Source: Torpedo marmorata
Lineage: Eukaryota
NCBI GenBank assembly: GCA_977017645.1
Contig: OZ360221.1
Span: 94,302,001-94,366,000 of the forward strand
DNA length: 64,000 nt
Direction: 5' to 3'
Shown here: one piece after another, positions 4,584-52,717 of the stretch
How positions within the stretch are numbered: position 1 is the stretch's first letter
How the letters are laid out: every line of letters begins with the position of its first letter
The notes under the pieces: generated by a model
What the model saw: the letters and a program-made list of their open reading frames with translations, nothing else
What the model was told of the DNA's origin: nothing
Databases searched by the model: none
Position numbers and translations under genes: made by a program

Positions 4584-4774
4584 ATCTGTCACGTATTCTA
4601 TGTTAAGAAATACACTGCAGACAAAGGCATGATGCTTCGTTAGTCATTTAATACAAATCTCAAAATGGTTCTCCCACCACACACAGTATATATCAGTCAG
4701 AACGTCATCACGTTGACGTAATGACGTCATACACCTGTAGGCGTATACATAACAGTTACTATTAATTAATCCAT

Positions 4775-18902: not shown

Positions 18903-21900
18903 TGTGGCGGGTCGAGCCACTTGGATCTAAAACCGTCATTCGTCGGGGTCGGGCACTCGCGAGAGCTCAAGCACTCGCGGGAGCTAGAGCACTGGCTCTT
19001 ATCAGAGAGCAGCTGAATCGACGCACGGGACCACAGTGCGTTTCTTCTTGACTTTTGGGGCCGGCAAGTTAAAGCATTCCTTGTCTGTTCGCGGTTTTGT
19101 TGAGCTGTTATGTCAACCATTAAACTCAGTGTTTAAACAAAACGCAAACGACTTCATTGGTGACCCCAACGATCCAAAATGGCCTCTTTTAGATTTCATA
19201 ATGCTTGGAGGAGAGAACCCAGATCAACAGAACGCAGTTTTGCTCAAACTACCCACCTTCTGGACATCACAACCGCAAGTGTGGTTTGAACAGGCCGAAG
19301 CCCAATTCCACCTCTGCCAGATAACTGCCGAAGTCACAAGGTACTACTACGTGGTCAGTGCGCTGGACCAAGAAACCGCCGGGCGCATTATCGATTACCT
19401 TCGCCAACCACCAGCCGACAACAAATACGAAGGGATCAAGACCCTCCTCAAACACACATTCGGTCTCACCCGCCGTGACAGGATGGCCTAGGTGACCGCA
19501 AACCGTCCATGCTAATGAACGAAATGCTCGGCCTGACGGATGGACACAAGCCCTGCCTCCTTTTCGAACAGGTTTTCCTCAAGCAAATGCCTGAGGACAT
19601 CCGCCTGCTCCTTGTGGATGACGATTTCACCGACCACTAACGGCTGGCAGCCTGTGTGGACGTGCTGTGGCAGGCCAAACAGCAGGGGGAAGCAACCATT
19701 AACCGAGTGGCGGCTGTGCCTCAGAGGGTAATACGAACGGTCCCAGCCTCTACGGAAGGAGCAACAGTGACGTCGGCCTCGAATGGCGCCAAGGACAAGT
19801 GGTGCTACTACCATCAAAGGTGGGGCTCCACGGCTCGCCGATGTCATCCACCCTGCACACATCCGGGAAACGCCTCGGCCGGCCGTCGATAGTGGCATCT
19901 GCGGCCGGCAAAAAAGACAGACTCCTCTAAACCTGGGATCGTCATTCGTGGCAGCGTTTTCTCGTTGACACGGGAGCGGAGGTCAGTGTCTTGCCCCCCT
20001 CGGGCACCGACACTCGTTCCGGAAAGAAGGGTACTCCCCTGACCGCCGTCAACTTTAACTCGTGTCGCTTCAAGTGGACCTTTACCATCACCGACGTCTC
20101 AGAACCGCTGCTGGGTGCCGACTTCCTCGGTGCGCACTCCCTGCTGGTCGACGTGAAAGGACAACGTCTCGCTAATTCCAAGATGTTTGAGTCAATCGCC
20201 TTGCGCCACGCCGAATTGACTGCGCCCCACCTTGGCTCGGTGATCTTCTCCGACAACGAGTATGCCAGAATCTTGGCCGATTTTCCAGACATCATAACTC
20301 CCCAGTTCACAGCGGCCAGCCCCAAACATGGGGTGCAACACCATATCCTCACTACCGGGCCGCCACTCCATGCACGCGCACGTAGGCTGCCCCCTGACAA
20401 GCTCCAACTGGCCAAAGACGAGTTCCGCAAGATGGAGAAAATGGGCATAGTGCGCCGCTCAGACAGCCCATGGGCATCCCCGCTTCACATGGTCCCTAAA
20501 GCATCTGGGGGCTGGAGACCCTGTGGGGACTACCGGCATCTTAATGAGGTCACAACACATGACTGGTACGCTGTCCCTCACATCCAGGACTTCACGGCAA
20601 ACTTGAATGGTGCCAAGATATTTTCCAAAATCGACCTGGTACGCGGTTATGATCAGATTCCAGTCAACCCAGACGACATCCCCAAGATGGCTCTCATCAC
20701 CCCGTTCGGGCTCTTCGAGTTTCTGCGCATACCTTTCGGTCTCAAGAATGCTGCCCAAGCTTTCCAGCGGCTCATGGACACGGTGGGCCGTGGGCTTGAC
20801 TTTGTATTCATCTACCTCGACGATATCCTAATCGCCAGCCGCTCTCGCCAGGAACACCGCGCACACCTCCGGCAGCTCTGCCAGAGGCTCGACGAGCATG
20901 GCCTGCGATCAACCTTGCCAAGTGTCAGTTTGGTCTCACTTCCATCAACTTCCTCGGCCACCACATCAACCAGCACGGAGTGGTCTCGCTCCCGACCAAA
21001 GTCGAGGCTATTTGCGAGTTTTCCAAACCCTTTACTGTGAAAGGACTCCGAGTTTGTCGGTATGGTCAATTTTTACCACCGTTTCGTGCCAGCCAGCATC
21101 CAGGATAATGCAACCGCTGTTCAAGGCCCTGGCCAACAAGCCGAAAGAACTTGTTTGGGACGACACGGCCACGGCTGACAACGCCAGGAAAGCGCTGGAA
21201 AAGGCAACAATGCTGGTACATCGACAAGCCAACACACCAACAGCTCTCACGGTTGACGCATCAGGCACAGCCGTGGGCGGAGTGTTGGAGCAACTGATCA
21301 ATGGTAGCTGGCAGCCCCTCGCCTTTTTCAGTCGCCACCTGAGACTGCCCGAGCAGAGATACAGCTCTTTTGACCGGGAGCTCCTCGCTCTCTACCTCGC
21401 CATCCGACATTTCTGCTACTTCCTCGAGGGCAGGAATTTCACAGCTTTCACGGACCACAAACCACTCACGTTTGCCTTTGCCAAAGTGTCTGATCTTTGG
21501 TCAGCCCGACAGCAGCGCCACCTGACCTACATATCGGAATACACGACTTGCGTCCATGCACATCTCAGTCAAGAGCAACCAGGTCACAGATGCGTTGTCC
21601 CGCTTGGCCATCAATGCCATCCACGCTCTGGCCACAGGTGTCGACGACACGACCGTGGTAGCCGCTCAACAAAATGATGAAGAGATGCTCACCTACCGCA
21701 CTGCCATCTCAGGCCTAAAGTTGGAGGATATGAGATTCGGGCCCGCTGACACCACACTCCTCTGCGACGTGTCTACGGGACAGCCAAGAGCCATCATCCC
21801 CGCTGCCTGGCGCCGCCGTATTTTCGACATGGTTCACGGCCTAGCTCATCCTTCCATCCGGGCAACGAAGAAACTTATGGCAGCCAAGTTCATGTGGCAT

Positions 21901-23210
21901 GGGTTGCGCAAACAGGTTGGCAACTGGGCCAGAGCGTGCATCCCCTGTCAAACTTCCAAGATTCAGAGATACATCAAGGCGCCGCTGCAGACGTTCACCC
22001 TGACACACCGGCGTTTCGACCACATCCACATCGACATCGTTGGACTGCTGCCCCCATGCAGAGGTGTCACCCACCTCTTCACTATCATTGACAGATTCAC
22101 AAGGTGGCCGGAGGTCGTCCCGCTCTCGGATACCTCCACTGCAACCTGTGCACGTACCCTCATTGCCCACTGGCGTGCCAGCGGACATCTCCTCTGGCAG
22201 AGGTGCGCAGTTCACCTCCGAGCTGTGGTCAGCAATGGCGCGGCTGCTTGGCACTAAGCTGCACCACACAATGGCCTACCACCCGCAATCAAATGGCATA
22301 GTGGAACGTTTTCACCAGCACATGAAGGCATCCCTCAAAGCACGGCTCACGGGCCCAAACTGGATGGACGAATTGCCGTGGGTTATGCTAGGTATACGCA
22401 CTGCCCCCAAGGAGGACCTGGCAACTTCCTCGGCCGAGCGGGTGTACGGTGCCCCGCTTACGGTCCCAGGGGACTTCATCCCGGCGGCACGTGCACATCA
22501 AGAAACGCCCGCGACCATGCTAATGCGCCTCCGTGAAAAGGTGGGCACGCTTTCTCCAGTCCCAACGTCCCGACACGGTCTCACAGCCTCGTACTTCTCA
22601 CCCGACCTCTAGGACTGCTAGTACGTTTTCCTTCGCCGAGATTCTCACTGTACACCTCTGCAAAAGCCTTACGAGGGACCCTTCAAAGTACTGCAAAACG
22701 ATGCCACGGCTTTCATCATTGACATGGGTGGTAGACACGAGATGGTCTCCGTGGACCGTCTTAAGCCGGCACACTTGGACATTGACCAACCAGTGCAGGT
22801 GGCACAACCCCACCGCAGAGGACGTCCACCCTCACGACCAAACCCGCCCTCAACTCAACCAGCTGCAACCTTGAACACGGGAGACACGTACACAAAATCA
22901 GGCCGCCTCACTCGACAGCCTAGCCATCTCCAATACTCCGGTTCTGGGGGGGGTCATGTGGCGGGTCGAGCCACTTGGATCTCAAACCGTCATTCAGCGG
23001 GGTCGGGCACTCGCGAGAGCTCGAGCAATCGCGGGAGCTAGAGCACTGGCTCTTATCAGAGAGCAGCTGACTCGACGCACGGGACCACAGTGCATTTCTT
23101 CTTGACTTTTGCGGCCGGCAAGTTAAAGCATCCCTTGTCCGTTCGCGGTTTTGTTGAGCTATTATGTCAACCGTTAAACTCAGTGTTTAAACAAAATGTG
23201 AACGACTTCA
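18903..23210 (+). mobile_element. Near full-length Ty3/Gypsy LTR retrotransposon (gag-PR-RT-RH-IN), decayed
   Basis: 254-bp LTRs 18903-19156 and 22957-23210 (about 15 mismatches by eye); TSD CCACT/CCACA; PBS TGGTGACCCC (tRNA-Trp type) at 19158; PPT near 22945-22953; motifs LVDTGA, YLDD, VDAS, HHCC, GIVER, PYEGPF. Confidence 0.97.
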
Positions 23211-30985: not shown

Positions 30986-31568
30986 TCCTATTAGAATACT
31001 GGAACTCCTATTAGGGAACCTGACAGGACAGGTAACAGAGGGGGAACACTTTTGGGTCCAGTGATCATAATGCCATTAGTTTCAAGTTAATTATGGATAA
31101 GGATAGGTCTGGTCCTCCGGTTTAAATTCTAAATTGGAGAAAGGCCAATTTTGAGGAAATGAGAAAGGATCCAGAAAGCATGGATTCGGCTAGTTTGCTT
31201 TCTGGCAATGATGTGCTCATTAAATGGGAGGCCTTCAAAGGTGAAATTTTGAGAGTACAGAGTTTATGTGTTTCTGTAAGGATTAAAGACAAAGTTAACA
31301 GGCATAAGGAACCTTGGTTTTCGAGGAATATTGTGGATCGGGTTAAGAAAAGAGAGGTGTACGGCAGGTATAGTCAACAAGGAGCAAATGAGGTACTTGA
31401 CGAATATAAAAAATTCAGGAAGAATTTAAGGAAATCAGGAGGGCTAAAAGAAGACATGAGGTTGCTTTGGCAGACAAGGTGAAGGAAAATCCTAAGGGCT
31501 TCTACAGGTATATTAAGAGAAAAAGGATAGCAAGGGACAAAATTGGTCCCCTTGAAGATCAGAGTGGT

Positions 31569-32330
31569 CAGGGGCGTATCTACGGAAAATAGCACCTATG
31601 GCAAGCACTGAAATTGTGCCCCTGTCCAAACATCTGACACCCATCTTTTAGATAACTTTACCATAATATCAGCTCAGAAATACAAGACAAGCTCGTTAAT
31701 CTTTTAATTAACAAATTATGGCACTACATGAAAATTATAACTGCACCTTCCTTGCTTTCACTGATGCAAGTTGGTCTATGACATGATCAAAGTCAGTTTT
31801 TTCAGTTTCTTCTCTTTCTACACTCAGCAGAGCAAGATCACAGAGTCTGCCTTGACCCATGGAGGCTCGGTGCGGCTGCTCCTGAAGACCAGCAGGACGG
31901 ACGGGCAGTCTTCGATGAGCTCCTTCAGCCCGTTGTCTCGGTTCAGCAGCTCCTCGAAACACTCAGGATCGCTCAGGCCGAATGCCTCGTAATCGCGGTC
32001 CTGGAGCCACACGAGGCGGGGGTCGTCGATCGAATTGGCCGGACTGGGCCGGGCCTCACCGCCAGATCCGCGCTCTAACGGCTGAGCTCGCAGCCTCGGC
32101 CCCTGGGCGCGTGCCAGAGTCCCGTCTCCATGGAGATTGCGGCGATTACTCCCGTTCTCATGGTAACCGACATGTCACTTCTCCAGAGTTTGAACTGTTT
32201 AGCGGTAGCAACGTCGATGCACAGGCACAAGTGCCCAAACATTCTGCTCCACAGAGGATGGCTTGTCTGACTTTAATAGAAACTGCTCAGTGGCGCCCAG
32301 GGCACGTGCCATACCTTAGATACGCCACTG
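31569..32330 (-). mobile_element. Non-autonomous hAT DNA transposon (762 bp) carrying a captured host fragment
   Basis: 8-bp TSD AGAGTGGT (31561-31568, 32331-32338); TIRs CAGGGGCGTATCTACGG / CAGTGGCGTATCTAAGG; transposase C-terminus MGQGRLCDLALLSVERE..DFDHVIDQLASVKARKVQL* at 31735-31860. Confidence 0.93.
31868..32036 (-). pseudogene. DNAH10: Captured fragment of dynein axonemal heavy chain 10 exon 1
   Basis: Translates SIDDPRLVWLQDRDYEAFGLSDPECFEELLNRDNGLKELI-EDCPSVLLVFRS; matches the recalled DNAH10 N-terminus MDDLRVLWMRDRVYAAFGITDPQLFEDLLNRDDG..EDLI..EEGPSALFIYRT. Confidence 0.75.
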
Positions 32331-32730
32331 AGAGTGGTTGGTTATGTATGGAGCCAAAAGAGATGGGGGAGATCTTAAATAGGTTCTTTGCATCTGTATT
32401 TACTCAGGAAACTGGCACAGAATCCAGGGAAGTGAGGCAAACAAGCAGTGAGGTCATGGAACCTATATAGATTAAAGAGGAGGAAGTGCTTGCCGTCTTA
32501 AAGTGAATAAGGGTGGATAAATCCCTAGGGCCTGACAAGGCATTCCCTCAGAATTTGAGGGAGGCTAGTGTAGAAATTGCAGGGGCTCTGTCAAAAATAT
32601 TTAAAATGTCCTCAGCCACTGGTGAGGTGCCGAAGGATTCTAGGGTAGCTCACATTGTCCCGTTGTTTACAAAAGACTCCAAAAATAACACAGGAAATTA
32701 TAAGGCAGTGAGTCTGATATCAGTAGTTAG

Positions 32731-33043
32731 TCAAGTCAAGTCAAGTTTATTGTCATCTGATTGTACAAGTGCAACCCGACGAAACAGCGTTCTCCGGTCC
32801 TCGGTGCAAAACATGCAGATATACAACCAAACATAACACACATACAGACAAACAATACATATGCAGGATAAGTATTTTATCTATACAAATAAATAAATAA
32901 ATATTGTTTTGTACAAATGAGAGTCTTGGATGGTTAGTGTGAGCAGTTCGTTTGGTCGTTCAGCATTCTCACTTCCCATGTGAAGAAGCTATTCCTCAGC
33001 CTGGTGGTACTGGCTCTGATACTCCTGTATCTCTTCCCCGATG
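32731..33043 (-). mobile_element. Rex1/Babar 3' fragment inserted in CR1
   Basis: Tail GACAATAAA(CTTGA)3; GTAGTTAG at both junctions (32723-32730, 33044-33051). Confidence 0.8.
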
Positions 33044-34649
33044 GTAGTTAGGTACGTTATTGGAAGGTGTTCTAAGAGATTGGATATACAAGTATTTGTA
33101 TAGTCTGGGACTTATTAGCGATATGCGTGGTAGGTCATATTTAACAAATATTATAAAGTTTTTCAAGGATGTTACTCGGAAAGTTGATGAAGGGCTGTGG
33201 ATGTTGTCGACATGAACTTTAGTATGGCCTTTCACAAGGTCCCGCATGGGAGGTTAGTCAGGTGAGGAAGTAAACTGGATTTGACATTGGCTTTAAGGGA
33301 GAAGCCAGAGAGTGGTAGTGGATGATTGCCTCTCTGACTGAAGCCTGTGACTAGTGGTGTGCCTCAAGGATTGGTGCTGGGTCCATTGTTGTTTGTCATC
33401 TATATCAATGATCTGGATGATAATGTGGTTAATTAGATCAGCAAGTTTGCAGATGACACAAAGATTGGTGGTGTAGGGGACAGTGAGGAAGGATTTCAAA
33501 GCTTCCAGAGGGATCTGGACCAGCTGGAAAAATGGGCTGCAAAATGGCAGATGGAATTTAACGCAGATAAGTGTGAGGTGTTGCATTTTGGAAGGACAAA
33601 CCAAGCTAGGACATACATGGGAAATGGTAGGGCACTGAGGGGTGAGGTACAACAGAGGGATCTGGGAATTCAAATGTATAAATCCCTGAAAGTGACATCA
33701 CAGATAGATATGGTTGTAAAGAGAGCTTTTGGCCCTTTGACCTTCATAAATTAAAGTATTGAGTACAGGAGTTGGGATGTTATGGTAAAGTTGTGTAAGA
33801 AATTAGTGAAGCCAAATTTAGAGTATGGTGTGCAATTTTGGTCACCTAACTACAGGAAAGATATCAATAAAATTGAAAGAGTGCAGACAAGATTTTCTAG
33901 GATGTTGCCAGGACTTGAGGAACTGAGTTACAGGGAAAGGTTAAACACATTAGAACTTTATTCCCTGAAGTGTAGAAGAACGAGGAAAGGTTTGATAGAG
34001 GTATACAAAATTATGATGCATTTAGATAGAGTAAATGCAAATAGTCTTTTTCCACTGAGGGTAGGTGAGATCCAAACCAGAGGACATGGGTTAAGGGTGA
34101 AAGGGGAGAAGTTTAGGGTGAAAATTAGGGGGAATTTCTTCACACAGAGAGTGGTGGGAGTATGGAACTGCCAGCTGAAGTGGGGAAGTGGGCCTGTTTT
34201 CTGTGCTGTAATGTTCTATGGTTCTAATGGGGTGTGAGGAGGAATCTAATATATTGGAGTTCTTTGAATAAATAATGTATAGTCTAGATAAAAGGGAACA
34301 AGTAGATGTGGCAGACTTGGATTCATTTACAAAGTGCCACACTAAAGGATATTGCAGAGCATAAAGGCTCAAGGTGTCGCAGGTAATGCCCATAGAAGGT
34401 AGAAGGGATAACAGAGGCTTGTTCTGGCTGGCAAGATGTCATGAGTGGTGTGCCATATGGGTGATTGCCAGAGCTTCTGCAGTAGTTCACTGGCGCTGAA
34501 TCCCAGGGCCAGCCATTTCCAGCTGCATTAGAAACTACCCAGCCTCCTTTTGCAGATATATGTTCAGTTCTATCTGCAGCATCTCAATGATAAAACATTC
34601 ATACCCGCCTGCAAAAGATAGTTCAGATAACTCATGGATTTGGACTGTC

Positions 34650-35050: not shown

Positions 35051-35339
35051 CGTTGATGCTAGCATATTGCCTCGAGCATGACTGAGCAGGGAGAGCGTTG
35101 GCGAAATTAGACAGTTATAAATCTTTTAAAAATATTTTAGCAGTTGATGAAAAATGCGTTTAAACTTCGCCTTAAATGAGCACGGTCTGGTTTTCAAGAT
35201 AGAGGCGAATGGTCAAATCGGTCTTGAGGCAAACCAAATCTGTGGACCGAAATGGGTCGATTGGGCTTTCTGAGTCCTTCCTCGTAGATATTAAACTAAA
35301 AGAAAAACGTGAACATTGCAGTTTCGGAAAATGAACCCC

Positions 35340-35762
35340 CTCTCGACAATCTCATCACATCATACGGCCCCGAGTAGTCTCCAGGCCAAGTGAGTGAACC
35401 AACACTGGGATATCCCGGTGACAGAGGAGGCGGCGCATCGAAGTGAGATTGCCCCGGATTATTATGGCCACATTTGAGGCCGGAGTAGATTACGGATTAG
35501 TTTTGAGGCTCTTCACCACCATAAAAGGACAGCTGATTATTGACGCGGTCGGCGTGGGGAAGCCTCCTCCCTCCTTCCTTCCTTCCTTCCTTCCCGGTGC
35601 TGTCCAGAATTAAGCAGGAGGCGAGAAGGAAAGTCTCACTGAACCCCACATCACTGACAGCCCGCTGCTTGGACATCAACTCAAGCCGCAACTCAGCCCT
35701 GGGGAAGGGGGTGGACGCCGTTGCTGCTAGCAGCCCCGCTCCCTCAACCTCCCCGGCCCGCG
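35340..35762 (+). promoter_or_regulatory. ITGA8: CpG-rich ITGA8 promoter and 5' UTR with CArG box (35519-35528), E-box (35530-35535) and (CCTT)n tract
   Basis: TE-free, CpG-enriched DNA just upstream of the ATG; CCATAAAAGG fits CC(A/T)6GG; CAGCTG adjacent. Confidence 0.65.
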
Positions 35763-35947
35763 ATGACCGCTCGCCGCAGCTGCCAGGAGGTAGTGATCCG
35801 GAGCCAGAGGCTCCGCTTGCTGCTCCTGTTGCCGCTGCTGCCAGGATGCCTCTCCTTCAACCTGGACTTGCAGCCCACTGTCTACAGCGGACCCGAGGGC
35901 AGCTATTTCGGTTACTCGGTGGATTTCTACTCGCCTGTTAAAAACAC
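35763..35947 (+). CDS. ITGA8: Integrin alpha-8 coding exon 1 (signal peptide and FNLD mature N-terminus)
   Basis: [18 protein letters not shown]|[25 protein letters not shown]; donor AC|GTGAG, phase 2. Confidence 0.95.
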
Positions 35948-36224
35948 GTGAGCAGCATTGCCCCTTTTATATGTAACATGCATGCATGGCAAAACAAACG
36001 TTTCAAGAGTTGCCAAAATCCACAGCTTGATTTTTGCAAAGGATGTCTTACTTACAACAATTTGTAATTTAGTGAATGTTCATAATCACTGGCGCATTTT
36101 CCCGGTTAGTTTTGATCATTCACAGCACGGGGCGGGATAGACTAATGTGTGGTTAACAGTGATGTAAATAATTTCTGCTTTTATTTTAAATCTGTTTTTT
36201 TTTTTTGTTTGGGGTCATCTTCAG

Positions 36225-36355
36225 TGTCAGCGTCCTTGTTGGAGCTCCGAAAGCCAACACAACTCAACCAGGGATCGTGGAAGGAGGAGCGGTGTACTTC
36301 TGCGGCTGGGCAGCAGGAGGTGCTGCTTGCAGCCAGATCCCGTTCGACAGAAGCA
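36225..36355 (+). CDS. ITGA8: Integrin alpha-8 exon 2
   Basis: TTCAG| acceptor; [37 protein letters not shown]; |GTAAGT donor; frame continuous with exon 1. Confidence 0.95.
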
Positions 36356-37759
36356 GTAAGTGTGAAGAGGCAGCAAGCTCTCGGTGCTGCTCCCATCCAT
36401 TCTATTGCCTTGTTCCTTCCTCTCCCGCTGAGCTTCAAACAAATCCGCAGTCTGCGCGAAAGTCCTAGGAAAGCTCCAGTCGCCTGGTAGCACTTTACTT
36501 ATCCCCGCTACATTTTACTCCGGGCGCAGACAAAACTATTACTTAAGATCTACAAAAAGAACCACATCGCAGAACGTGCATGTGCAATTCTACCTCTCAA
36601 ACATGCAGTTTTAATTCCATTTCTGAAGCAAATGTTCTGCAAAGCACGTGGTGCGCAGTAAAAGATTATACCTGTATCTGCAATTTCTTATCTTAAACCG
36701 TTAAACAAGACTGCGTCCACTTTATTGAGAAATCGAATATGTCAATTTAGTCATAATAATTCCAAAGATGAGACGATTCATAGGATCAATTATTTAAATA
36801 TACTATATGTTTGATGTCCGTGGTGTTTCACAGAACATAAAATGAAATCCCACCTCACATTACAATTACACTACATTGATTTAATTACCGGTATATCAAA
36901 TGGGAATGGAAATATCATTCTCATTGTCTGAAAATTAGAATAACATGTTTTAAATTATACTTGTTTATTTTTGTTAAAATTAATAACACGTGCATTTTTG
37001 TTTTAAATATGAATCATATTAAAATTCCATAAAAGGAATAAAATTGGACAGAGAGCAAAAATATTTACATGAATTTATGCATTTCAGTCATGAGAAACAA
37101 TAGTTTAGAAATACTTAAACCTACGAAAAACCACAGTTCAGTTAGTTTGTTTTTGTATAAATGTTCAAGTGTCTTGTAAAATGATCTGTAAGTTTTGCTG
37201 GCGGAGTATAACTAAACAAAGCAATTTGTGCAGGGTCCATGTCACAGGCTGAAGGATAAGGTAGAAGGAAGGATGGCAGATTGCTAAATATCTGATCACT
37301 GTGAAACAGAAGAAGCAGGCACATTGCTCAAATTGAATTTAACATCTGTTGACAACTTTTTTATTATGTGTTTGAATTAATGCTGTACAAGGACAGTAAG
37401 GCACACCTCCTGGTTAACAGTTCACGAGGAAACTTATGGACAGGGAGTGAAATTGGGGAAGGTGAACATGTGGAAAATCAGTTTGCTTCAAAAAGAGAGG
37501 GGTTGAGGAATTGTCTGCTTTTTATTAAAGACTGAAACGCATCATAATTGGAGCTGATTTTTTCACCAGATGGTTCCTTTTATGTTGACATCTGCAAACT
37601 GTATGTTAAACATAGTTGGAGAGATATGTGTACATATAATTAAATCATGAATTAGGTTATATTCTTGGGAAAGCAATTAGACACATCTATATTCTGTCAG
37701 CAGAAAAGTAATGTTTTAGTATTTTATCATTTAGCATGTAAATCATCTATAAACATAAT

Positions 37760-38115
37760 AACCTAAGAACGTATGAAATAGAAGCAGGTAAAGGCCATTT
37801 GGCCCATCATGGATTCTCACCATTCATTAAGATCATGGCTGATATTTACCTGAGTGCCACTTTACTGCCCTGAGCCATTATCACCTGATTCCATTAATAC
37901 CTGAAAGCCTGAAAATCTCATCCTGCATATACTCAACAACTGAGCATGCAAGGAACCACTCTGTTCTGTATGAAATAATGTCTTCTCATTTCAGTCCTGA
38001 ATGGCCAACCATTTATTTACCCCTAGGTTTTTTTACACCCCAGACAAGAGAACTATCTACACTGCATTAACCTTATCCTGTCAGGCTCTATAAGAATTTG
38101 GTATGGTTCAATAAG
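37760..38115 (-). mobile_element. Old CR1 3' fragment in intron 2
   Basis: AAATAGAAGCAGG..GGCCATT..ATCATGGCTGAT tail type, as at 7310 and 24190. Confidence 0.6.
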
Positions 38116-38389
38116 ATCCAAAAGATATGTTTGAAATTATCACAACAGTTTTACATGGAAAAATCAGTCATTTATTTGAATATTATAATTTGTAAATAAC
38201 AGTGATTGATCAAACAGATTTACATTTTTGGTGTTAGCAGAATCATTCATAGTAAAACATTAGCACTAAATACTAAATAATGTTAGTTGTGATTAATAAT
38301 TGACAACAATACACATGAATTTATTATTTTAAGATGGTGAGGTCGATATTGAAATTGTGTGACAATACAAATACTGTATATAAATTATG

Positions 38390-38510
38390 AAGGGTGACAA
38401 AGGGCCTTAGATCTGAAATGATAGCTCCATTCTCTGTCCACCAATGCTGCTTGACCTGCTGAGTGTTTCTAGCTTTTTTTGTTATTATTTGTAATCGCAT
38501 AACTTGCAAA
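38390..38510 (+). mobile_element. Old Penelope pLTR fragment
   Basis: GACAAAGGGCCTTAGATCTGAAA..TGCTGCTTGACCTGCTGAGT. Confidence 0.5.
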
Positions 38511-38632
38511 ATCTCAATGAAACAAAATAGTGGAGAAGTTATAATTTTATTCTCATTTCAATGTTTTAATGGCTGTAAAAGAAAATCTTACAACACATGA
38601 AGGGCAAGCATAACATTTCTTTCAACTGTCAG

Positions 38633-38733
38633 GTAACAGAATCATCAGAGTTAATGGCACAAGGGAACCCATTGAATTCAAATCCAACCAATGGTTTGGG
38701 GCAACAGTACGATCTCATAAAGAAAGAGTTGTG
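38633..38733 (+). CDS. ITGA8: Integrin alpha-8 exon 3
   Basis: NRIIRVNGTREPIEFKSNQWFGATVRSHKERVV (RVNGT.EPIEFKSNQW is alpha-8-like, not alpha-V or alpha-5); 101 nt, AG/GT; not in the ORF track. Confidence 0.95.
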
Positions 38734-38814
38734 GTAAGTCATTGCAATTGTATGTTACAACGTCTTGGATCATTTATATTTAGATCATTCCCGCTTCATT
38801 TCTCCGTCCCATTC

Positions 38815-39420
38815 CCATGTTTGTCTGCCGCAATAGCTGGGATTTGCCAGTACAACCCATTTCAATTCCCCACCCCATTCCCTTGCCGATATGTCTGTCC
38901 ATAATCTCATGCACTGCCAGAGTGAGACCACCGGCAAATTGGAGGAGCAACACCTCATATTCCATGTGGGTACCCTCCAACCGGATGGCATTAACATCAA
39001 CCTCCAGTTTCTGTTAGCCCCTCCCCCTTCTATCCCTATTTCTCCTTTCTTCTAGCCCTCTCTCCCTCTCTCTCTCTCTCTCTTTCCTTTTCCCTCTGTC
39101 TCCTTTCTTTCAGCTCTGCATTCACAGAGCCATCCCCTCCCCCGATCAATTCTCACCTTTCCCTGCCTGTCCTCCTATGTACAATTATGACTCTTTGTCT
39201 TTTGGTCTGTGCTCCTCCCCTGCTCTTTCTTTCCTTCTCCCCAGCCTTTTAATTCATGCGCCTACCTGCTTTTTACTCATTCATCGAAGAAGGGCTCAGA
39301 CCCGAAACGTCGGTTATATATCTTTCCTCCTATGGTTGCTGCGAGATCTGCTGAGTTCGTCCAGCATTTCTGTGTTTTTACTACAATCACAGCATCTGCA
39401 GACTTTTGTGTTTCACCTCA
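38815..39420 (+). mobile_element. 5'-truncated Penelope-like element (GIY-YIG C-terminus, pyrimidine tract, pLTR with hammerhead-like motif)
   Basis: HFNSPPHSLADMSVHNLMHCQSETTGKLEEQHLIFHVGTLQPDGIN; GAAGA-AGGG-CTCAGA-CCC-GAAAC-GTC at 39286-39311. Confidence 0.87.
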
Positions 39421-40059
39421 TTTAGATGTGTGCTTTGATCTTTTGTATTCTTAGTTGCCTATGTTATTGGGGGTTCTTGCTACCTATATTTGAAAATGGT
39501 AGATAACATTGTACTTCACTTCTTCAGGGTCACATTGTAAAAATGTACGTGGTAGAAAAATGAATCACTAGAGTGTTGTAAAGTTTAGATCTGTTTTCCA
39601 TCTTCTAGTTACTATTTGTATTGTTTCATTTTTAATAAAAAGATTTAACTAGTATCCATTGGACAGGTTTTATGAATTGGTTGGTTGGGTGAATAAATAA
39701 GCAGTGCTTATGTTAAAGTTAACGTCAATGAAATGGTAAAGTTCATGATCATATTAAACAATGACTAGCTGTAGGTATTATTATATTTAAGTCATTTTTA
39801 GTTTCAAAAATATAAACGTAAAATAGATTCTTGTGATAAAAAGGTTGCCTCAGGAATAGTTATCCATCAATTAAACTTTTGCAGTGAAGGGATTTAGGTG
39901 ATGTTTGAATCTGGAAAAACAACTGGATGAAGTCATAACAATGCCAACACATTAATGAAGAGCCCATGGCTGAATAAGTTTGCCAGTAAAAATGCTGGTG
40001 TTTTCAAAAAAAGAAAATAATTTCTGTTTGATTCAATTGATTTCTTTTTTCGTTAATAG

Positions 40060-40183
40060 GCTTGTGCCCCATTGTATAATTGGCGAGCCCTTAAATTGAC
40101 TAAAGAGAAAGACCCCGTGGGTACCTGTTATGTTGCAGTTCGGAATTTCAGTACCTACGCAGAATATTCTCCATGTCGCTCTG
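40060..40183 (+). CDS. ITGA8: Integrin alpha-8 exon 4
   Basis: TAG| [41 protein letters not shown] |GTAGGT; 124 nt, frame continuous. Confidence 0.95.
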
Positions 40184-40344
40184 GTAGGTCAAGCATCCAG
40201 CACAGAGTGAATGCTTGTATGTATTTTATCTATTTTAAATATTCACTTTTTCTTTATTCTGTGGGTTATTTTTATAAATATTTAGCTATTAAGTACATCT
40301 TGGTTGCCCATATGTAGTGATTTAAAAACATACAAATGTTACTT

Positions 40345-41495
40345 ATTCACTGAGTATATGAGTAAGGAAGTCATGTTTCAGCCACATTAAACTTTGGTTA
40401 GGCCACACTTGGAATATTAGATGGAATTCTGGTTGCACCATGATAGAATGCGGAGTCTTTGGAAAGGGTTTTTACCGGGATGCTGCCTGGATTAGAGACT
40501 ATGAGTTACGGAGAGAGGTTGGATAAACACAGAGATAAACGGGAAAGTCTTCAGATGCTGTGATTGTAGTGCAATACACAAACATGCTGGAGAAACTCAG
40601 GACAAACATGGGTCATTTTCTCTGGATAAGGGGAAGAACTGAGAGAAGTCTATAAAATTCTGAGAGGCAGGGATGGGGAAGAAGGTCCGAATCTGTTCCC
40701 CAGGGTAAAAATGTCAAATACTAGAGGACATTTAAGGTGAGAGGGGGATAGATGTATGCCACACATATTTCACGCAGAGAGTGTTGGGTACCTGGAACAC
40801 GTTGCCAGTTGTAATGGTGAAAGCAGATATAACCATATAACCATATAACAATTACAGCACGGAAACAGGCCATTAGGCCCTTCTAGTCTGCACCGAACCA
40901 AACACTCCTCTCTAGTCCCACCTACCTGCACCCTGCCCATAACCCTCCACTTCCTTCTCATCCATATATCTGTCCAACTTTTTCTTAAATAATAAAATTG
41001 ACTCTGCCGCCATTACTTCTCCCGGAAGCTCATTCCACACCGCTACCACTCTCTGAGTAAAGAAGTTCCCCCTCATGTTACCTCTAAACCTCTGCCCCTT
41101 AACTCTTAACTCATGTCCTCTTGTTTCAATCTCTCCTACTCTTAACGGAAATAGTCTATCCACATTCACTCTGTCTATCCCTTTCATAATCTTAAATACC
41201 TCTATCAAATCCCCTCTCAACCTTCTACGCTCCAAAGAATAAAGACCTAATCTGCTCAATCTCTCCTTGTACTCTAGATGCTTAAACCCAGGTAACATTC
41301 TGGTAAATCTTCTCTGCACTGATAGATATGATAGCAGCATTTAAGAGGTTTTTACATGGATACATGAACATGCAGGGAGTAGAGGTTTATGGATAATGTG
41401 CATGCAGAAAAGATTTATTTTTATTTTGCATAATGTTTGGCTCAGACATCATAGACTGAAGGGCATGTTCTTGTGCTGCACTGTTTTATGTTCTG
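40345..41495 (+). mobile_element. Old CR1 3' part, with a pLTR fragment (about 40530-40600) and a young CR1 inserted
   Basis: LVRPHLEY, MLPGL; 3' tail GAAGGGCATGTTCTTGTGCTG. Confidence 0.75.
40831..41320 (-). mobile_element. Young CR1 3' fragment, same family as 2084-3240
   Basis: Near-identical to 2752-3240; (TTATATGG)n tail; AGATAT near both junctions. Confidence 0.93.
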
Positions 41496-42439: not shown

Positions 42440-45400
42440 AATCTTTTTCTTTTTCAATCTTTTTATTGGTTTTTGAGAAAAAATATTATCAAATACATAG
42501 ATACACATGATATAAAGTTCAGGTAAAAGTAAAATAAAATTACAGATAGTAAACAAGATACATATGATCCATGTTATTGATTAAAAAAAAGGAAAAGAAA
42601 AAAGAAAAATAATCTACAACTAATCTAATTTCTAACCCCAACCTATTATATGAGCGATTCCTATTTAAGCCAGGCGTCAACTACTAATTTCAATACTAAT
42701 ACTTCAGGAAATGAAGAAAAAGAGAAAAAAATAAAAATAAATTTAATAACAAGCAAAAATAATTGATCTATAAATTTTGAAAATAATTGAAAAAAGAACC
42801 CCAAAGAGAAAAATATTTAATACTCGTTTTAGTAGTTGAGCACCTAATTTTCTCTAGAGAGAGGGATGCCATCCAATAACCATTGTGTATGTGTGGGAGG
42901 GACAGCATCTTTCCACTGCAGCAAAATGAGCCTTCTAGCAATCAGGGAAGCAAAAGCAACCACAGGGGGTTGAGATGGAGTTCAAATTAAGTCCATTGGT
43001 CCACTCATTCCAAAAATAGCAATAAAAGGGCTCGGGGACAGATTTATATCAAGAATTAAAGATAATAGGGGTAGCTATATTAATTAATAAAAAGTTACCT
43101 TTTAATATACAATCGATAGTTACAGATGTGGCAGGTAGATATGTTATTGTTCATTGTCAGACATATTCAGAATTTTGGACACTTATGAATTTGTATGTTC
43201 CAAATATAGATGATGAACAGTTTATTCAAGATTCTTTTTTACACTTGTCAGAAGCTAATGAGAATATTTTAGTTGGTGGAGATTTCAACTGTTGTTTAGA
43301 TCCAATAATGGATAAAACTTCAAGATCACTTGTTAAAACTAAAATTGCTAAAAAAGTTCTTACTTTGATGAAAGATTTAAATTTAATGGATATTTGGAGG
43401 AAACTGAATCCTAGAGAAAAAGATTATTTGTTTTATTCTTTTAGACATGATTCATATTCTAGAATAGATTTATTTTTGTTATCTTCACAGGTTCAAGATA
43501 GAATAACACAAGCAATTTATAAAGCGAGAATAATATCTGATCATTCACCTTCACTAATATCTTGTATAATTCCGGAAAAAGAAAAAATTGATATAGCTGG
43601 AGATTTAATTCTTCTTTATTAAAAAGAAAAGATTTTTGTGATTATATGAGAAGGGAAATTCAGGAATTTTTACAAATAAATTCCAATTCTACTAATAATA
43701 ATTTTATTATATGGGAAGCCTTAAAAGCTTATTTAAGAAGTCAGATAATAAGTTATTCAGCAAAAATTAAGAAGGATTATCTTAGAGAGGTTAATAATTT
43801 AGAGAAGGAAATTGAGTGTTTGGAAAAAGACTTACAAAAAAATAGATCAATTCAAAAAAGGAATAATTTAGTTGGGAAAAAATTACATTATAATTTATTA
43901 CAAACATATAAAATGGAAAAATTAATTGAAAGAACTAAACAAAGGTATTATGAATTAGGGGAAAGAGCACATAAAGTCTTGGTGTGGCAATTAAAAAAAG
44001 ATCAAAGTTCTAGAACTATAAATGCTATTAAGAAAAAGAATTCTATGGAAATAACTTATAAAGCTCGGGAAATAAATGATTCTTTTAAGGATTATTATTT
44101 AAATTTATATAAATCTCAGATTAATCAAGATGATTCTAAAATTAATAGATTTTTATCTAAGATTACATTACCTAAATTAAATATTCAAAGTAGAGAAGCT
44201 TTAGATTTACCTTTCTCAATGAGGGAAGTTAATGAAGTTCTTACTTCTTTAACGAGTGGTAAATCTCCAGGTGATGATGGATTTCCAGCAGAATTTTATA
44301 AAGAGTTTAAAGACTTATTGATACCTCCGTATATGGATGTATTAAATCAAATTACGGAAACCCATTCACTACCGGATACACTTTTAAATGCAATAATTAC
44401 AGTTATACCAAAAAAAGATAGAGATGTATTAAAAACTGAATCATATAGACCTATTTCATTGTTAAATGTAGATTACAAGATAATGGCAAAAATTTTAGCA
44501 AATAGGATGGCTAATTATTTACCAGATTTAATTCATGTAGACCAAGCTGGTTTTATTAAGAATAGATATTCAAAAGAAAATATAGCTAGATTAATTAGCT
44601 TAATTAATTTACAAAAAAAGAAAGAAGATTTACCATTAGTATTAACGTTAGATGCCGAAAAGGCTTTTGATAGACTAGAGTGGAATTTTTTATTTAAGGT
44701 GTTGGAGAAATTTGGTTTTGGAATTACGTTTATTAATTGGATTAAAACTAAATATAAAGAACCATCTGCTAAAGTGGTTACAAATGGACAGATTTCTTCA
44801 AGATTTCCTTTGACTCGATCTACTAGACAAGGATGTCCTTTGTCACCAGCGTTATTTATTTTGGCGATAGAAACTTTGACAGAATTAGTTAGAAAAGATC
44901 CTAAAATAGTTGGTATTAAAGTTGGAACGGAAGAACATAAAATTAGTTTATTTGCAGATGATGTATTGATATATATGACAAAATCTATTACATCTTAAGT
45001 ACAACTGTCTGCGTTATTGAGAGAATATGGGGAAATATCTGGATATAAAATTAATTCTGATAAAAGTGAAATTATGGCATTATCACAAGGGGATTATAGT
45101 AAATGTAAAGAAATTACACAATTTAAATGGGCAAAGGAAGGAATTAAATATCTGGGAATAAGGATTGACACAAAATTGGCTAATTTATATAAATTAAATT
45201 ATTTACCATTATTTGTGAAAATAAAAATGGATTTAGAAAATTGGAAAGATTTACCTATAACTTTAATGGGAAGAGTAAATTGTATTAAAATGAATGTTTT
45301 TCCAAGAATTCAATATCTTTTTCAATCAATTCCTTATGAAATTCCTCAAAAATGTTTCAAAGATTTAAATTCAATTATTAGAAACTTTTTATGGAAAGGA

Positions 45401-47762
45401 AAGTTAGCAAGAGTAGGTATGGAAAAATTAACTTGGAATTATGAAATGGGTGGTTTACAACTTCCTAATTTCCAAAATTATTATAAAGCAACTCAATTAA
45501 AATTTGTTAATGAATTTTTTGATTCAACTAAATCTTCTGCTTGGATTAAAATAGAACTAAATAATATAGGAGAAGATTCCAAAGAAGAAGTTATTTATAA
45601 ATGGGATTCTAAATTAATATCAACAAGAAAGAAAAATTCTCCTATTCTTAAACATTTGTTAGAAATATGGAATAAGACGGATAAGGAAATAGGAGGAAAA
45701 GGATTGATTTCTTCAAGGATGCCTTTATATCAAAATGGACTTATTCCATTTACTATTAATAATCAATTATTTAAAATTTGGTTTCAAAAAGGAATTAAGA
45801 AAATAAATGATTGTTTTGAAGCTGGGAAATTTATTACTTTTCAAAGAATGAAAGATAAATTTAATATATTAGATAATACACTTTTTGCTTATTATCAAAT
45901 TAGAGCTTTTTTGATTGAGAAATTAGGTTATGCTTTGACTTTACCAAGACAGAATGAATTAGAATTATTAGTTACTAAAGGAGATGTAAACAAATTTATT
46001 TCTCAAATGTATAAATTGTTTCAGAGGAAAATTCCTAAAGTAGGAATTCATAAATCAAGATTAAAATGGGAATTCGATTTGAACGTAACAATAGATGAAA
46101 ATCATTGGAAAGAATTATGTAAATTAAGTATGACGAAGATTATTAATGTTAGATATAGATTAGTACAATACAATTTTTTTCATCAATTATATTTAACACC
46201 TAAAAGATTAAAGAAATTTAACCCGACATTATCAGGTTTATGTTTCAGATGTAATAAAGAGGAAGGTTCTTTTGTACATTCTGCATGGTTTTGTCCAAAA
46301 GTCTACGATTTTTGGTTCAAAGTTAAAAAAATTTTAGATAAAGTATTTAAGATTATATTCCCGATGGATCCTATGATATTTTTGTTTGGAGATATTAAAA
46401 AATTTAGTATTAAGATGAAATTAAATATGTATCAAATAGAATTTTTGCAAATTGCTTTAGCTGTTTCAAAGAAATGCATTGCTATTACTTGGAAATCTGA
46501 TGTTGATTTAGGGTTAGAAAGATGGCATGCAGAACTTCGTTCATGTATACCACTTGAAAAAATTACTTATAACTTACGGAATAAATATCATTTCTTTTTA
46601 AAAATATGGAGCCCTTATATGAAAGCTGTTGGATAAAGGATTTGAAGATCTCTGGACATTGGATCTACTAGCTGTTAGATTAAGGATTTGAAGATCTCTG
46701 GACATTGGATCTACTGGCTACCTAACCTCCATAATAGAATTAGTTTATAGATGTATTCATTAGATTGACATTCTCCTTACCTTATCTTTTTCTTCTCTAT
46801 TTCTTTCTTTTTTTAAAATATTTTATTAGATTAGTGGGGTTGGGAGGGTTGGGGAGGGGAGGGTGGGAGGGGGGGGGGTGAAAATGTATCACAAGTATTT
46901 TTGATAATTTTATATTTTATTCTATGTATTTTGTGATTTAAAATTTTAAATAAAATATTTAAAAAATATTTTTTTTAATGAATTAAAGATAATGTACTAA
47001 ATATCTCTTTCCAGTAGTTACAAAGGGAGGGACATAACCAAAACATATGATATAAAGTACCTTCCTGAGTTGTACACTTATCACATTTAGAGGATATATT
47101 AGGGTAAAATTTAGCTAATTGAACTTTGGAATAGTGGGCCCTATGGACTACTTTAAATTGTAATAAGGAATGTCTAGCACAGAGAGAGGATGAATGTACA
47201 TTTTTCAAAATAGACTCCCATGTATGTTCAGCAAACAGTTGTTGAAAGTCATGTTCCCTAACGTTCTTAATGTTAGATAAAGAACTATCGCTAAATCTTA
47301 AAAGTAGTTCATAAAGGGCTGAAAACAGTCCTTTCTGATTAGGACTAAAATTATATACTTCCCAGATAAGATTAAAATCTAAGTCTTGGGGAAGCCTCAA
47401 CGTTAAGGAGTTTAAGAAACTCCTAATCTGTAAATAGCGAAAAAAACATTGTTTAGGTAATTTAAATTTGGCAGATAATTGCTCAAAAGAGGCAAGGTTT
47501 TGGTCTATATATAAGTCCAAGAAAGAGTGAATACCTAACCTAGACCATTGATTATATCTAATGTCTTGAACCGAAGGTAAAAAAAAAGGAATTACGTAAA
47601 ATTGGACTAATTAATAAAAATCTATGATAACCAAAGTGCTTTCTAAATGGGAACCAAATACGCAAAGTATGTCTAACTACTAATTATCAGTTAATTTGGA
47701 GAGCGAAAAAGGCAAATGTGCTCCATATTGAAATAAGAGAGTGTTTTTAATGGATTTTTAAT
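42440..47762 (-). mobile_element. L1-clade family B 3' part (42440-43066 and 46980-47762), split by a family A L1
   Basis: ORF2 C-terminus FFRYLQIR..QFKVVHR..CDKC..HMFWLC..FSTLSLI continues across the insert into LILLQWK..EKIR. Confidence 0.88.
43067..46979 (+). mobile_element. 5'-truncated family A L1; ORF2 with one frameshift and one stop
   Basis: TSD GAATTAAAGATAAT (43053-43066, 46980-46993); ORFs 43128-43622, 43646-44998, 45017-46636 closely similar to 14088-17879. Confidence 0.95.
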
Positions 47763-50700: not shown

Positions 50701-51040
50701 TCATTTATTTTTTGGGGTTTATAACTAATAACATTAGATTCACTTTTAATTGCATTAATTGTTCTTGACGCCTGTTCTATTTTTAATTGCCATGCTAGTA
50801 CTTTATGTGATCGTTCACCTAATTCATAATATCTCTGCTTAGTTCTTATAATAGTCTTCTCCGTTCTATAAGTCTGTAATACATTATATTGAATTTTTTT
50901 ATTAGTTAGTTGTCTACGCTTATCTTCAGAGCTTCTCTTTTGTAAATCCTTTTCTTTTTTTAAAAAAATACTTTATTTAACATTTTTGAATCACAAAATA
51001 AATAAAATAAAATATAAAATTATCAAAATACATGTGATAC

Positions 51041-52717
51041 CGCAGAAATGCACCTCTCCCAGCAGATTAAGTCAAGAAGCCCTTTTAATCAACTCTAAAA
51101 GTTTTTAGAATACTTTGAAAAGTATTAACAACTAAATACAATGGCTACTAGAAAAAAAACGAAGGAACAAAAGCCTAAGAAACCTTTGAAATCTGTAAAA
51201 CAACTATCCTTAGTACAAGAAGAAAAGAGGCCTACCTTTGCTTTGGATCCGGGGACTGTCCTAACGATGGAGCGCAAGGCTCAACGGAGAGCGCGAGTAA
51301 GTGAGTCGGGAGTGCCGACGCTAACTCCGCAGGGAGCTGCGGAAGATGGCGCCGGCACCCGACATCGAACTACAAAAGGAAGTCGGGAGTCACCGCGCAT
51401 GCGCGAACCGTCGGGAGCTGAAGAGCTGCAAAGGCAAGCAGCTAGATTGGAGATGACGTCAGCTAGGGCTTCCCAGACTATACTACAGCCTGGGGAGCCA
51501 GAAAGATCGTCAGACTCAGAAGATGAGAAGGATATTCAACAGCTGGAAGGGGACAGTGAAGAATATGATACACAGTCAGAAGACACAGAAGATTTCAAGA
51601 AAGAAATAGGGTTAGTAAAGGAAAACCAACAAAATATTTTACAAGCCATTGTAAATTTAGAGAAAAGTTTGCAAAGAGAATTTAAATTAACTATTACTCA
51701 GCTTGAAAAAAAAATGCAGCATGAATTTAAAGAGATAAAACAAGATATGATGCAAATGGATGTTAGAGTCCAAAAGATAGAAGATGAAGTTAAAAATAAT
51801 TCTGATGAAATTGAAGACTGTAAAGAAAGAGTGGGAAAAATGGATGATACTTTCATTGGATGGAAAAAACAACGTGAACAATTAATACAGAAGATTGATC
51901 AGATGGAAAATCAGAGTCGGAGAAACAATGTTAAAATATTGGGACTGCCGGAAGGAACTGAATCACAAGATATAACTCAATTTTTTCAGAATTGGTTGGT
52001 GCAGATATTTGACCTTGACCACCCAATGGAATTGGAAAGAGCACACAGGATTGGAAGGAGAAATCAGGGTGATCGGAGACGACGTCCAGTTTTGATGAAG
52101 TGTCTCAGATATCAAGATAGAGAAAAAAATTTTAAAATGGCAATTCAAAAAGCATGAGAAAATAAGGGTCCGATGGTGATAGAAAGAAGTAGAGTTCTCT
52201 TCTATCCTGACCTAAGTCCAATGGTGGTCAGGCAATGTAAAGAATTTAATCCTGCAAAGGCTGTATTGTGGGAAAAAGGATATAAATTTTCGTTTAAGTA
52301 TCCAGCAATTTTGAGGATTCAAGATAATGGTGAGAAGTTTTTGTTATTCACGAATCCTGATCAGGCTCTTTCTCATGCAAATGGTCTTCTGCATCGGGCA
52401 AGAAGTTTCCAGGATTCTGCTGAGCAACAAGATCGGAATAATCAAGCAAGACATGGAGACGGGTCGCCTGGCACGTCAAGAGAAAATATCTTAACTCAAG
52501 CTGAAGAAGAACCGGAAGATTCAGTTATGCGAGGAGTTGACTGAATTATATGTTGGACAAATATATATCTGTTGGGGGGAGGTGGTTTGTGGATACTTCT
52601 TCCGAAACAATCACCACCTTAGCAGCGAGAGCTGCTTCTCGAACAACGGAGGGGGGTAGCACTGGGAGTAGAAGACCAGTGTTTTTTATTGGGGAGAAAA
52701 AATAAAAAATAAAAATA
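51041..52717 (+). mobile_element. ORF1-only L1 retrocopy (HAL1-like)
   Basis: 16-bp TSD AAAATACATGTGATAC (51025-51040, 52718-52733); 5' UTR, ORF1, part of the spacer, (AAAAAT)n tail; no ORF2. Confidence 0.9.
51141..52544 (+). pseudogene. L1 ORF1p (coiled coil, RRM, CTD), 467 codons with one in-frame TGA at 52155
   Basis: ENQSRRNNVKILGLPEG, ERAHR, FYPDLS, KYPAIL; ORFs 51141-52157 and 52173-52544 share one frame. Confidence 0.9.

What the first reader, a model, noticed from the sequence alone, without database searches (positions are those of the whole stretch)
31569..32330. hAT element that captured DNAH10 exon 1 (Pack-TIR-type gene capture)
Seen: 17-bp TIRs, a perfect 8-bp TSD and a hAT transposase C-terminal remnant. 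Most of the transposase is replaced by about 350 bp of GC/CpG-rich DNA encoding IDDPRLVWLQDRDYEAFGLSDPECFEELLNRDNG..PSVLLVFRS. Recalled knowledge: this aligns with the DNAH10 N-terminus, with a short internal deletion. Inference: the element acquired the 5' end of an unlinked host gene and then transposed as a unit into a CR1. Gene capture by TIR elements is well known in plants and much less described in vertebrates.
Basis: partly seen in the sequence, partly recalled or inferred. Interest (0 to 1): 0.85.

Follow-up and report, generated by a model that had tools for sequence, protein, structure and literature searches.

The report
Transposon carrying a dynein gene's start
In a ray genome, a small cut-and-paste transposon has picked up the switch region and first codons of a sperm-tail and cilia motor gene; it is a clear case of a kind of gene capture already known in animals.

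Summary
31569-32330 is a 762-bp non-autonomous hAT element with 17-bp TIRs (15/17) and a perfect 8-bp TSD, inserted in a CR1 3.4 kb upstream of ITGA8 in a batoid, probably an electric ray. It keeps the last 44 transposase codons (up to 93% identical to DUF4371/hATC transposases). Inside is a 350-bp CpG island whose minus strand matches DNAH10 residues 1-37 (PDB, E 4e-9), then a 9-codon in-frame deletion and a weaker second block. It is coding-dead: no start codon, no splice donor, out of frame with the transposase tail. No parent copy or second element lies in the window. Whether it transposed after capture or was filled in place is not shown; copy number and breakpoints need the genome. Animal Pack-TIRs are described (370 cases, 208 hAT; PMC8277862), including a multicopy frog hAT carrying a 5' UTR; that survey had no batoid. 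Verdict: new member of a known kind, interest 0.38.

The parts
31561..31568 (+). Left copy of the 8-bp target-site duplication (AGAGTGGT)
   Evidence: identical to 32331-32338
31569..31585 (.). 17-bp TIR at the 3' end of the hAT (transposase sense is minus)
   Evidence: 15/17 complementary to the other TIR
31586..31734 (-). hAT 3' untranslated and subterminal DNA, AT-rich, with an ATTAAA hexamer at 31708-31703
   Evidence: assignment to the hAT is inferred from its place between stop codon and TIR
31735..31869 (-). Last 44 codons and stop of a hAT transposase (residues 849-892 of P0007: end of the dimerisation region plus tail); in-frame ATG at 31860
31866..31872 (-). 3' capture junction; about 4 nt (31869-31866) can be read as both DNAH10 and transposase codons, a candidate microhomology
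   Evidence: two-frame print and alignment; protein-level inference only
31870..31928 (-). Second DNAH10 block, after the 9-codon in-frame deletion
   Evidence: fraction of null windows scoring as high 0.00025 (16 offsets tried) and 0.00075 (21 offsets tried); not covered by the local alignments
31929..32036 (-). DNAH10 N-terminal coding block (36 codons); the codon at the fish-type Met position is AAT
   Evidence: (E 4.1e-9 to 8j07_k8), (HMM E 1e-15)
32037..32217 (-). CpG-island leader and probable promoter of DNAH10; upstream boundary uncertain (32215-32290)
   Evidence: composition continuous with the coding block; inference
32154..32167 (.). Palindromic RFX X-box, 118-131 nt upstream of the Met position
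   Evidence: only site in 64 kb for a recalled strict pattern; fits 4 of 6 published consensus patterns
32124..32137 (-). Second X-box-like palindrome, 88-101 nt upstream of the Met position
   Evidence: fits only the most degenerate published consensus
32218..32313 (-). hAT 5' subterminal DNA (inner boundary not mapped), with a short inverted copy of the TIR start near 32286-32295
   Evidence: inference
32314..32330 (.). 17-bp TIR at the 5' end of the hAT
32331..32338 (+). Right copy of the target-site duplication
31050..34240 (+). Host CR1-type LINE ORF2, decayed, interrupted by this element and by a second insertion at 32731-33043
   Evidence: the CR1 label is recalled from the translated sequence, not from a database call
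35763..40188 (+). Context: first four coding exons found of ITGA8; start codon 3.4 kb from the element, transcribed away from the cargo's direction

Best explanation
A Pack-hAT. During repair or replication of a hAT copy in the germ line, synthesis switched template from the hAT 5' end into the open, GC-rich promoter of DNAH10, copied about 350-380 bp (X-boxes, leader, first ~60 codons), and switched back into the last 44 codons of the transposase. The chimera kept both TIRs and subterminal DNA, was moved in trans by an autonomous hAT, and landed in an older CR1 upstream of ITGA8, making the 8-bp TSD. It no longer encodes dynein. Shown: hAT ends, TSD, transposase tail, DNAH10 identity, deletion, lost start, no nearby donor. 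Inferred: promoter identity, template switching, microhomology, and the order capture-then-jump. My confidence is about 0.93 in the anatomy and about 0.6 in the order of events.
For: Anatomy. DNA-level capture: the cargo is the 5' end with an upstream X-box; it has no poly(A) tail (one 6-A run, inside the transposase tail) and no direct repeat of 8 nt or more around it. For mobility after capture: no donor within about 31 kb on either side, whereas 160 of 281 animal Pack-TIRs lie within 15 kb of the parent and the multicopy ones were always distal; multicopy ones tend to carry GC-rich cargo; the multicopy frog hAT-N8_XT case carries a 291-bp 5' UTR. Both ends and the TSD are intact, and close transposase relatives are annotated in batoids (Mobula, Hypanus).
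Against: Only one copy was seen, and only 64 kb could be searched. Multicopy families were 4 (1.4%) of the surveyed Pack-TIRs, so the base rate favours a single in-place event; about 40% of surveyed cases were not assigned to the parent's chromosome, so a distant donor does not prove a jump. The strict X-box pattern is not significant window-wide (12 of 100 shuffles reach 2 strand-matches), and an X-box alone is not predictive of RFX control (PMC2375033). No DNA of the parent hAT or of batoid DNAH10 was obtained (empty), so neither junction is mapped at base level.
Confidence: 0.56

Rival explanations
1. In-place gap filling: a cargo-free hAT first inserted into the CR1; a later break inside it was repaired with ectopic DNAH10 DNA. 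The chimera never moved and is single-copy.
For: This is the reported origin of most single-copy animal Pack-TIRs (91 of 97 primate cases had the empty TE at the orthologous site). One copy in the window. A TSD is made whichever came first.
Against: Gap-filled cases mostly take nearby DNA and single-copy cases show no GC bias; here the donor is outside the window and the cargo is a CpG island.
Confidence: 0.28
2. Composite mobilisation: two same-orientation hAT copies flanked the DNAH10 5' end and moved together by their outer TIRs; internal deletions left one 5' end, the cargo and one 3' end.
For: Proposed for plant Pack-TYPE elements (PMC8903248, passages). The cargo has had at least one deletion.
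Against: No inner TIR remains (2 matches in the window at up to 3 mismatches, both terminal). It needs two more deletions and a hAT pair at the donor locus.
Confidence: 0.06
3. The cargo is only the coding block; 32037-32217 is the hAT's own 5' region, and the 5' junction lies at the lost start codon.
For: The start codon is lost exactly where coding similarity ends. A 14/16 near-copy of a subterminal 16-mer lies at 32101-32116 (1 of 500 shuffles in a directed test).
Against: That repeat is not significant when any such repeat is allowed (39 of 300 shuffles). GC and CpG are continuous with the coding block and unlike both hAT ends. An X-box about 120 nt before a motile-cilia gene start was a directed prediction (about 0.002 per 200 bp by scaling; my arithmetic).
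Confidence: 0.06
4. A DNAH10 mRNA was retro-copied into a resident hAT.
For: The cargo holds no intron, so an RNA intermediate is not formally excluded; the genome is rich in LINEs.
Against: The cargo is the extreme 5' end of a gene for a protein of about 4,500 residues, without poly(A) or its own TSD, and includes probable promoter DNA.
Confidence: 0.02
5. The cargo came from another species' DNAH10 and entered with a horizontally transferred hAT.
For: Transposase tails 82-93% identical occur in horseshoe crab, spiny lobster, lizard, toad and rays, a patchy spread that suggests horizontal transfer (no tree built). No batoid DNAH10 was available for comparison.
Against: The cargo shares a two-residue N-terminal extension and a CFEELL motif with two unnamed sequences that look fish-type by recall; the host's own gene is the simplest donor.
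Confidence: 0.02

Closest known systems
Animal Pack-TIRs (Tan et al. 2021, PMC8277862), especially multicopy Pack-hAT-N8_XT of Xenopus tropicalis carrying 291 bp of the CAPSL 5' UTR
   Same: Short non-autonomous hAT, both ends kept, TSD, a few hundred bp of GC-rich host 5'-end DNA (median cargo 224 bp), donor not adjacent.
   Different: Batoid host (only the elephant shark represented cartilaginous fishes among the 100 genomes, with 0 cases). The cargo spans probable promoter plus coding codons. A transposase tail remains. Copy number is unknown here. Their table gives coordinates, not gene names, so absence of the word DNAH10 does not exclude such a cargo.
Plant Pack-MULE / Pack-TYPE elements including Pack-hATs (PMC8903248)
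   Same: A TIR element carrying a GC-rich gene fragment of about 300 bp.
   Different: Vertebrate host; no evidence yet of a family, of transcription, or of multiple cargo genes.
Ssk-FB4 of Drosophila melanogaster (PMC8277862)
   Same: Captured the upstream region together with gene sequence.
   Different: Ssk-FB4 holds a nearly whole, expressed, multicopy gene; this element holds about 60 of about 4,500 codons and has no start codon.
hAT transposases with DUF4371 + Dimer_Tnp_hAT (P0007, P0006, P0009; architecture like BuT2 of the Tip group, PMC3942097)
   Same: The C-terminal 44 residues are 87-91% identical to these three; 8-bp TSD and 10-25-bp TIRs fit hAT.
   Different: Only the tail remains; subgroup placement was not tested by a tree.

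Membership tests
hAT superfamily (non-autonomous) | Short TIRs, 10-25 bp | tested here: met
   17 bp, 15/17; definition
hAT superfamily (non-autonomous) | 8-bp TSD | tested here: met
hAT superfamily (non-autonomous) | Homology to a hAT transposase | tested here: met
   The 44-residue remnant alone gave no Pfam hit; its relatives carry PF05699.
hAT Tip group | Transposase falls in the Tip clade of a hAT tree | not tested
   Relatives share the DUF4371 + hATC architecture of BuT2; no tree was built
Pack-TIR (Tan et al. criteria) | Internal non-TE sequence of 100-5000 bp between both ends of one TIR element | tested here: met
   about 350 bp; DNAH10 match; no match to 14 of 14 transposases tested outside the tail
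Pack-TIR (Tan et al. criteria) | Unique parental copy in the same genome at 90% identity or more, not itself TE-flanked | not testable with these tools
   No eukaryotic DNA collection; parent absent from the window
Pack-TIR (Tan et al. criteria) | Not a retrocopy | tested here: inconclusive
   No poly(A), no cargo TSD, 5'-end origin, but no intron is included that would prove DNA origin
Multicopy (mobile) Pack-TIR | Several copies with the same junctions and different TSDs | not testable with these tools
   One copy in 64 kb; protein and genome-contig searches found no second copy but are poorly suited
DNAH10 (cargo) | Best and specific match to the DNAH10 N-terminus among solved chains | tested here: met
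   3 of 177,635 PDB sequences matched at E up to 10, all over residues 1-37 of chains of 4,526-4,589 residues; two are named DNAH10, one is labelled RSPH9 but gives the same aligned stretch
DNAH10 (functional gene copy) | Start codon, intact exon 1, splice donor | tested here: not met
   AAT at the Met position, 9-codon deletion, 3 of 18 conserved positions in codons 1-36 changed, no donor-like site
RFX-regulated promoter | X-box near the start of a ciliary gene | tested here: met
RFX-regulated promoter | X-box conserved at the orthologous promoter and needed for expression | not testable with these tools
   No parental DNA or expression data; no paper held DNAH10 + X-box + RFX

The most novel reading that the evidence does not exclude
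The element is a mobile germ-line mini-gene. The captured RFX promoter faces the transposase tail; the first ATG downstream of the X-boxes is the in-frame ATG at 31860 and an ATTAAA follows the stop. A multicopy family would therefore scatter testis- and cilia-specific promoters through a ray genome, be transcribed in spermatogenic cells, and yield RNA matching both the hAT family and the DNAH10 5' end, possibly rewiring neighbours such as ITGA8. With the frog CAPSL case (ciliary gene by recall) it would point to repeated capture of RFX-open promoters by hATs in the male germ line.
Probability: 0.12. Interest if true: 0.7.

Novelty: new member of a known kind. Interest (0 to 1): 0.38.

Why it matters
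As it stands it is a clean, compact example of a DNA transposon capturing the regulatory start of a vertebrate gene, in a lineage (rays) that the animal Pack-TIR survey I read did not include. It gives a simple test of the two proposed origins (in-place gap filling or capture then transposition). If it proves multicopy and transcribed, it would be one of few mobile vertebrate Pack-hAT families and would carry a defined tissue-specific promoter, which bears on how promoters spread and on which chromatin transposons capture from.

Tried and rejected
Search of proteins of 101-2000 residues with the cargo peptide: 0 of 12 candidates significant; full-length DNAH10 is outside that range. Pfam on cargo and remnant: only a sub-threshold Spo16_C match, rejected as chance. 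ESM Atlas: no usable hit. Rfam on 31000-33000: 0 matches. Genome contigs (bacteria and archaea, tried for eukaryotic contaminants holding the parent hAT): 134 pattern matches, none confirmed; 0 exact matches to the terminal 22 nt. In-frame DNAH10-transposase fusion: rejected, the frames differ. Internal 16-mer repeat as meaningful: rejected post hoc. Assembly chimera: unlikely, because the cargo is decayed while TSD and CR1 flanks are exact. Pfam scan of 146 of 287 non-repeat stop-to-stop frames (plus strand only; 141 minus-strand frames not scanned) found no dynein. Literature: no DNAH10 + X-box + RFX paper; none of the 15 listed of 528 papers contained DNAH10; searches listed no Pack-TIR report in cartilaginous fishes.

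Full report
Observation. The element spans 31569-32330 (762 bp) and is bounded by an exact 8-bp duplication and 17-bp inverted repeats that pair at 15 of 17 positions. This combination occurs once in the window and in none of 20 shuffled windows. Taking out the element and one TSD copy leaves the ORF2 frame of the surrounding LINE continuous, so this is a true insertion into an older, decayed CR1-type element (label recalled from the translated sequence). BLASTN and a TIR search with up to 3 mismatches find no second copy in the 64 kb.

Host and setting. Four coding exons of an integrin alpha gene lie at 35763-40188 on the plus strand. Exon 2 retrieves ITGA8 of Pristis, Narcine, Mobula and Leucoraja as the top four hits, and exon 1 is closest to Narcine bancroftii among 9 named proteins compared (54 of 59 aligned residues). 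The host is therefore a batoid, probably an electric ray. The element ends 3.4 kb upstream of the ITGA8 start codon.

The hAT part. On the minus strand 31869-31738 encodes 44 residues that match the C-terminus of hAT transposases: 71 hits among 82 candidates, the best 13 at 82-93% identity, with named hits in Limulus, Panulirus, Hemicordylus, Bufo, Mobula and Hypanus. A full-length relative carries DUF4371 and Dimer_Tnp_hAT, the architecture reported for BuT2 of the Tip group (PMC3942097, passages); I built no tree. TBLASTN with 14 of these transposases matches the element only in the tail, starting at 31869. In 13 of 13 relatives the tail is preceded by Tyr-Leu, which the window lacks, so the 3' junction is at 31866-31872.

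The cargo. CpGs are dense from 31868 to 32215; GC is 0.62 and CpG o/e about 1.0, against 0.33-0.40 in the element's ends. The minus-strand peptide hits 3 of 177,635 PDB sequences, all over residues 1-37 of chains of about 4,500 residues, two named DNAH10 (E 4e-9 to 6e-9). A profile built from 10 of them, without the window sequence, finds the cargo at E 1e-15 and nothing else among 2,536 stop-to-stop frames of the window. After codon 36, 9 residues are missing relative to 5 of 5 references, and the next 17-22 residues score above 99.9% of null windows (0.00025 and 0.00075 before correcting for 16 and 21 offsets). The deletion and second block are thus supported, more weakly than the first block. 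The cargo stops roughly ten codons short of the point where several reference fragments diverge, which I take as the exon end (inference), and has no donor-like site: it is part of exon 1, not all of it.

It is not a working dynein piece. The codon at the Met position of the two fish-like references is AAT; 3 of 18 conserved positions in codons 1-36 differ, each by one base from a codon for the conserved residue (some may be lineage differences, as no batoid DNAH10 was on hand). The DNAH10 frame and the transposase frame differ, so there is no fusion protein.

A palindromic X-box lies at 32154-32167, 118-131 nt upstream of the Met position. It is the only site in the window for a strict pattern that I recalled; window-wide that is not significant (12 of 100 shuffles reach 2 strand-matches), but its place was predicted from the gene's identity, and scaling gives about 0.002 per 200 bp. 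It fits 4 of 6 published consensus patterns (PMC2375033, passages), and a second palindrome at 32124-32137 fits the loosest one, which has 87 strand-matches in the window. That paper warns that an X-box alone does not predict RFX control. DNAH10 is an inner dynein arm component needed for sperm flagella (PMC9679630, passages); RFX regulation of ciliary genes through X-boxes is established (PMC5024701, listing and passages), but I found no paper on an X-box at DNAH10. I read 32037-32217 as DNAH10 leader and promoter. The rival, that it is hAT DNA, rests on a 14/16 repeat that is not significant post hoc (39 of 300 shuffles; a directed test gave 1 of 500).

Mechanism. Capture was most likely at DNA level by template switching: the cargo is a 5' end with upstream DNA, has no poly(A) and no duplication of its own, and about 4 nt at the 3' junction read in both parents' frames (inference from proteins). 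The order of events is open. Tan et al. (PMC8277862; abstract, Results parts 1-2 of 4, sections 10, 12 and 14, Supplementary Data 2 whole, Supplementary Data 1 part 4 of 4, term searches of 12 supplements) report that most single-copy Pack-TIRs form in place from nearby DNA, while the four multicopy families are distal from their parents and tend to be GC-rich. This element has the multicopy traits: no donor within about 31 kb each side, and a CpG-island cargo. ITGA8 and DNAH10 are on different human chromosomes (recalled). But multicopy cases were 1.4% of their set, and I saw one copy. I put capture-then-jump at about 0.6 and in-place filling at about 0.3. A composite of two neighbouring copies (PMC8903248, passages) is less likely since no inner TIR remains.

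Comparison and novelty. It works like, and meets the testable criteria of, an animal Pack-TIR; the parental-copy criterion cannot be tested here. The kind is known: 370 cases in 55 species, 208 in hATs, 13.4% exonic, and a frog hAT that moved 291 bp of the CAPSL 5' UTR to three chromosomes. That survey held no batoid and found none in the elephant shark. Its table lists coordinates, not genes, so a DNAH10 cargo elsewhere is not excluded. My searches listed no report of this element or of Pack-TIRs in cartilaginous fishes; they cover open-licence papers only.

Boldest reading. Downstream of the X-boxes the first ATG on the minus strand is at 31860, in the transposase-tail frame, and an ATTAAA lies about 27 nt after the stop. 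Promoter from the cargo and 3' end from the transposon could form a small germ-line transcription unit. The 41-residue product holds only the last 16 positions of the Pfam dimerisation match, so a dominant-negative protein is unlikely; an RNA or promoter effect is more plausible. Nothing here shows expression. Probability 0.12, interest 0.7 if true.

Verdict. Real feature, correctly spotted; a new member of a known kind; interest 0.38.

Noticed in passing
window 35763-40188 (+): First four coding exons found of ITGA8 with a CpG island at about 35300-36100; best match to batoid proteins, exon 1 closest to Narcine.
   Followed up: yes
window 32731-33043: A second insertion in the same CR1, flanked by an 8-bp direct repeat (32723-32730 and 33044-33051) and ending in short AGTCA repeats; looks like a minus-strand retroelement 3' end.
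   Followed up: partly
proteins P0001-P0071: This hAT family has tails 82-93% identical across horseshoe crab, spiny lobster, a lizard, a toad and rays, which suggests repeated horizontal transfer; one lizard model (P0013) is joined to a PF01352 (KRAB, by recall) domain.
   Followed up: no
window 900-4754, 18903-23210, 58009-62491: Three LTR retrotransposons with terminal repeats 97%, 94% and 95% identical; the last two are GC-rich, related, with broken pol-like frames.
   Followed up: no
window 14058-17879 (-): An L1-like element with an uninterrupted 1,273-residue ORF2-like frame; further decayed L1-like copies at about 43000-57900 and 62600-64000.
   Followed up: no
window 32101-32116 and 32296-32311: 14/16 near-copy of a subterminal hAT 16-mer inside the cargo; not significant post hoc.
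   Followed up: yes
window 40505-40639 (+): Sub-threshold ArfGap Pfam match (E 3e-4, 21 bits against a cutoff of 28.7) in an ITGA8 intron; probably chance.
   Followed up: no
PDB chain 9fqr_Hl: A 4,583-residue chain labelled radial spoke head protein 9 gives the same aligned N-terminal stretch as the DNAH10 chain 9fqr_K2; likely a labelling slip.
   Followed up: no
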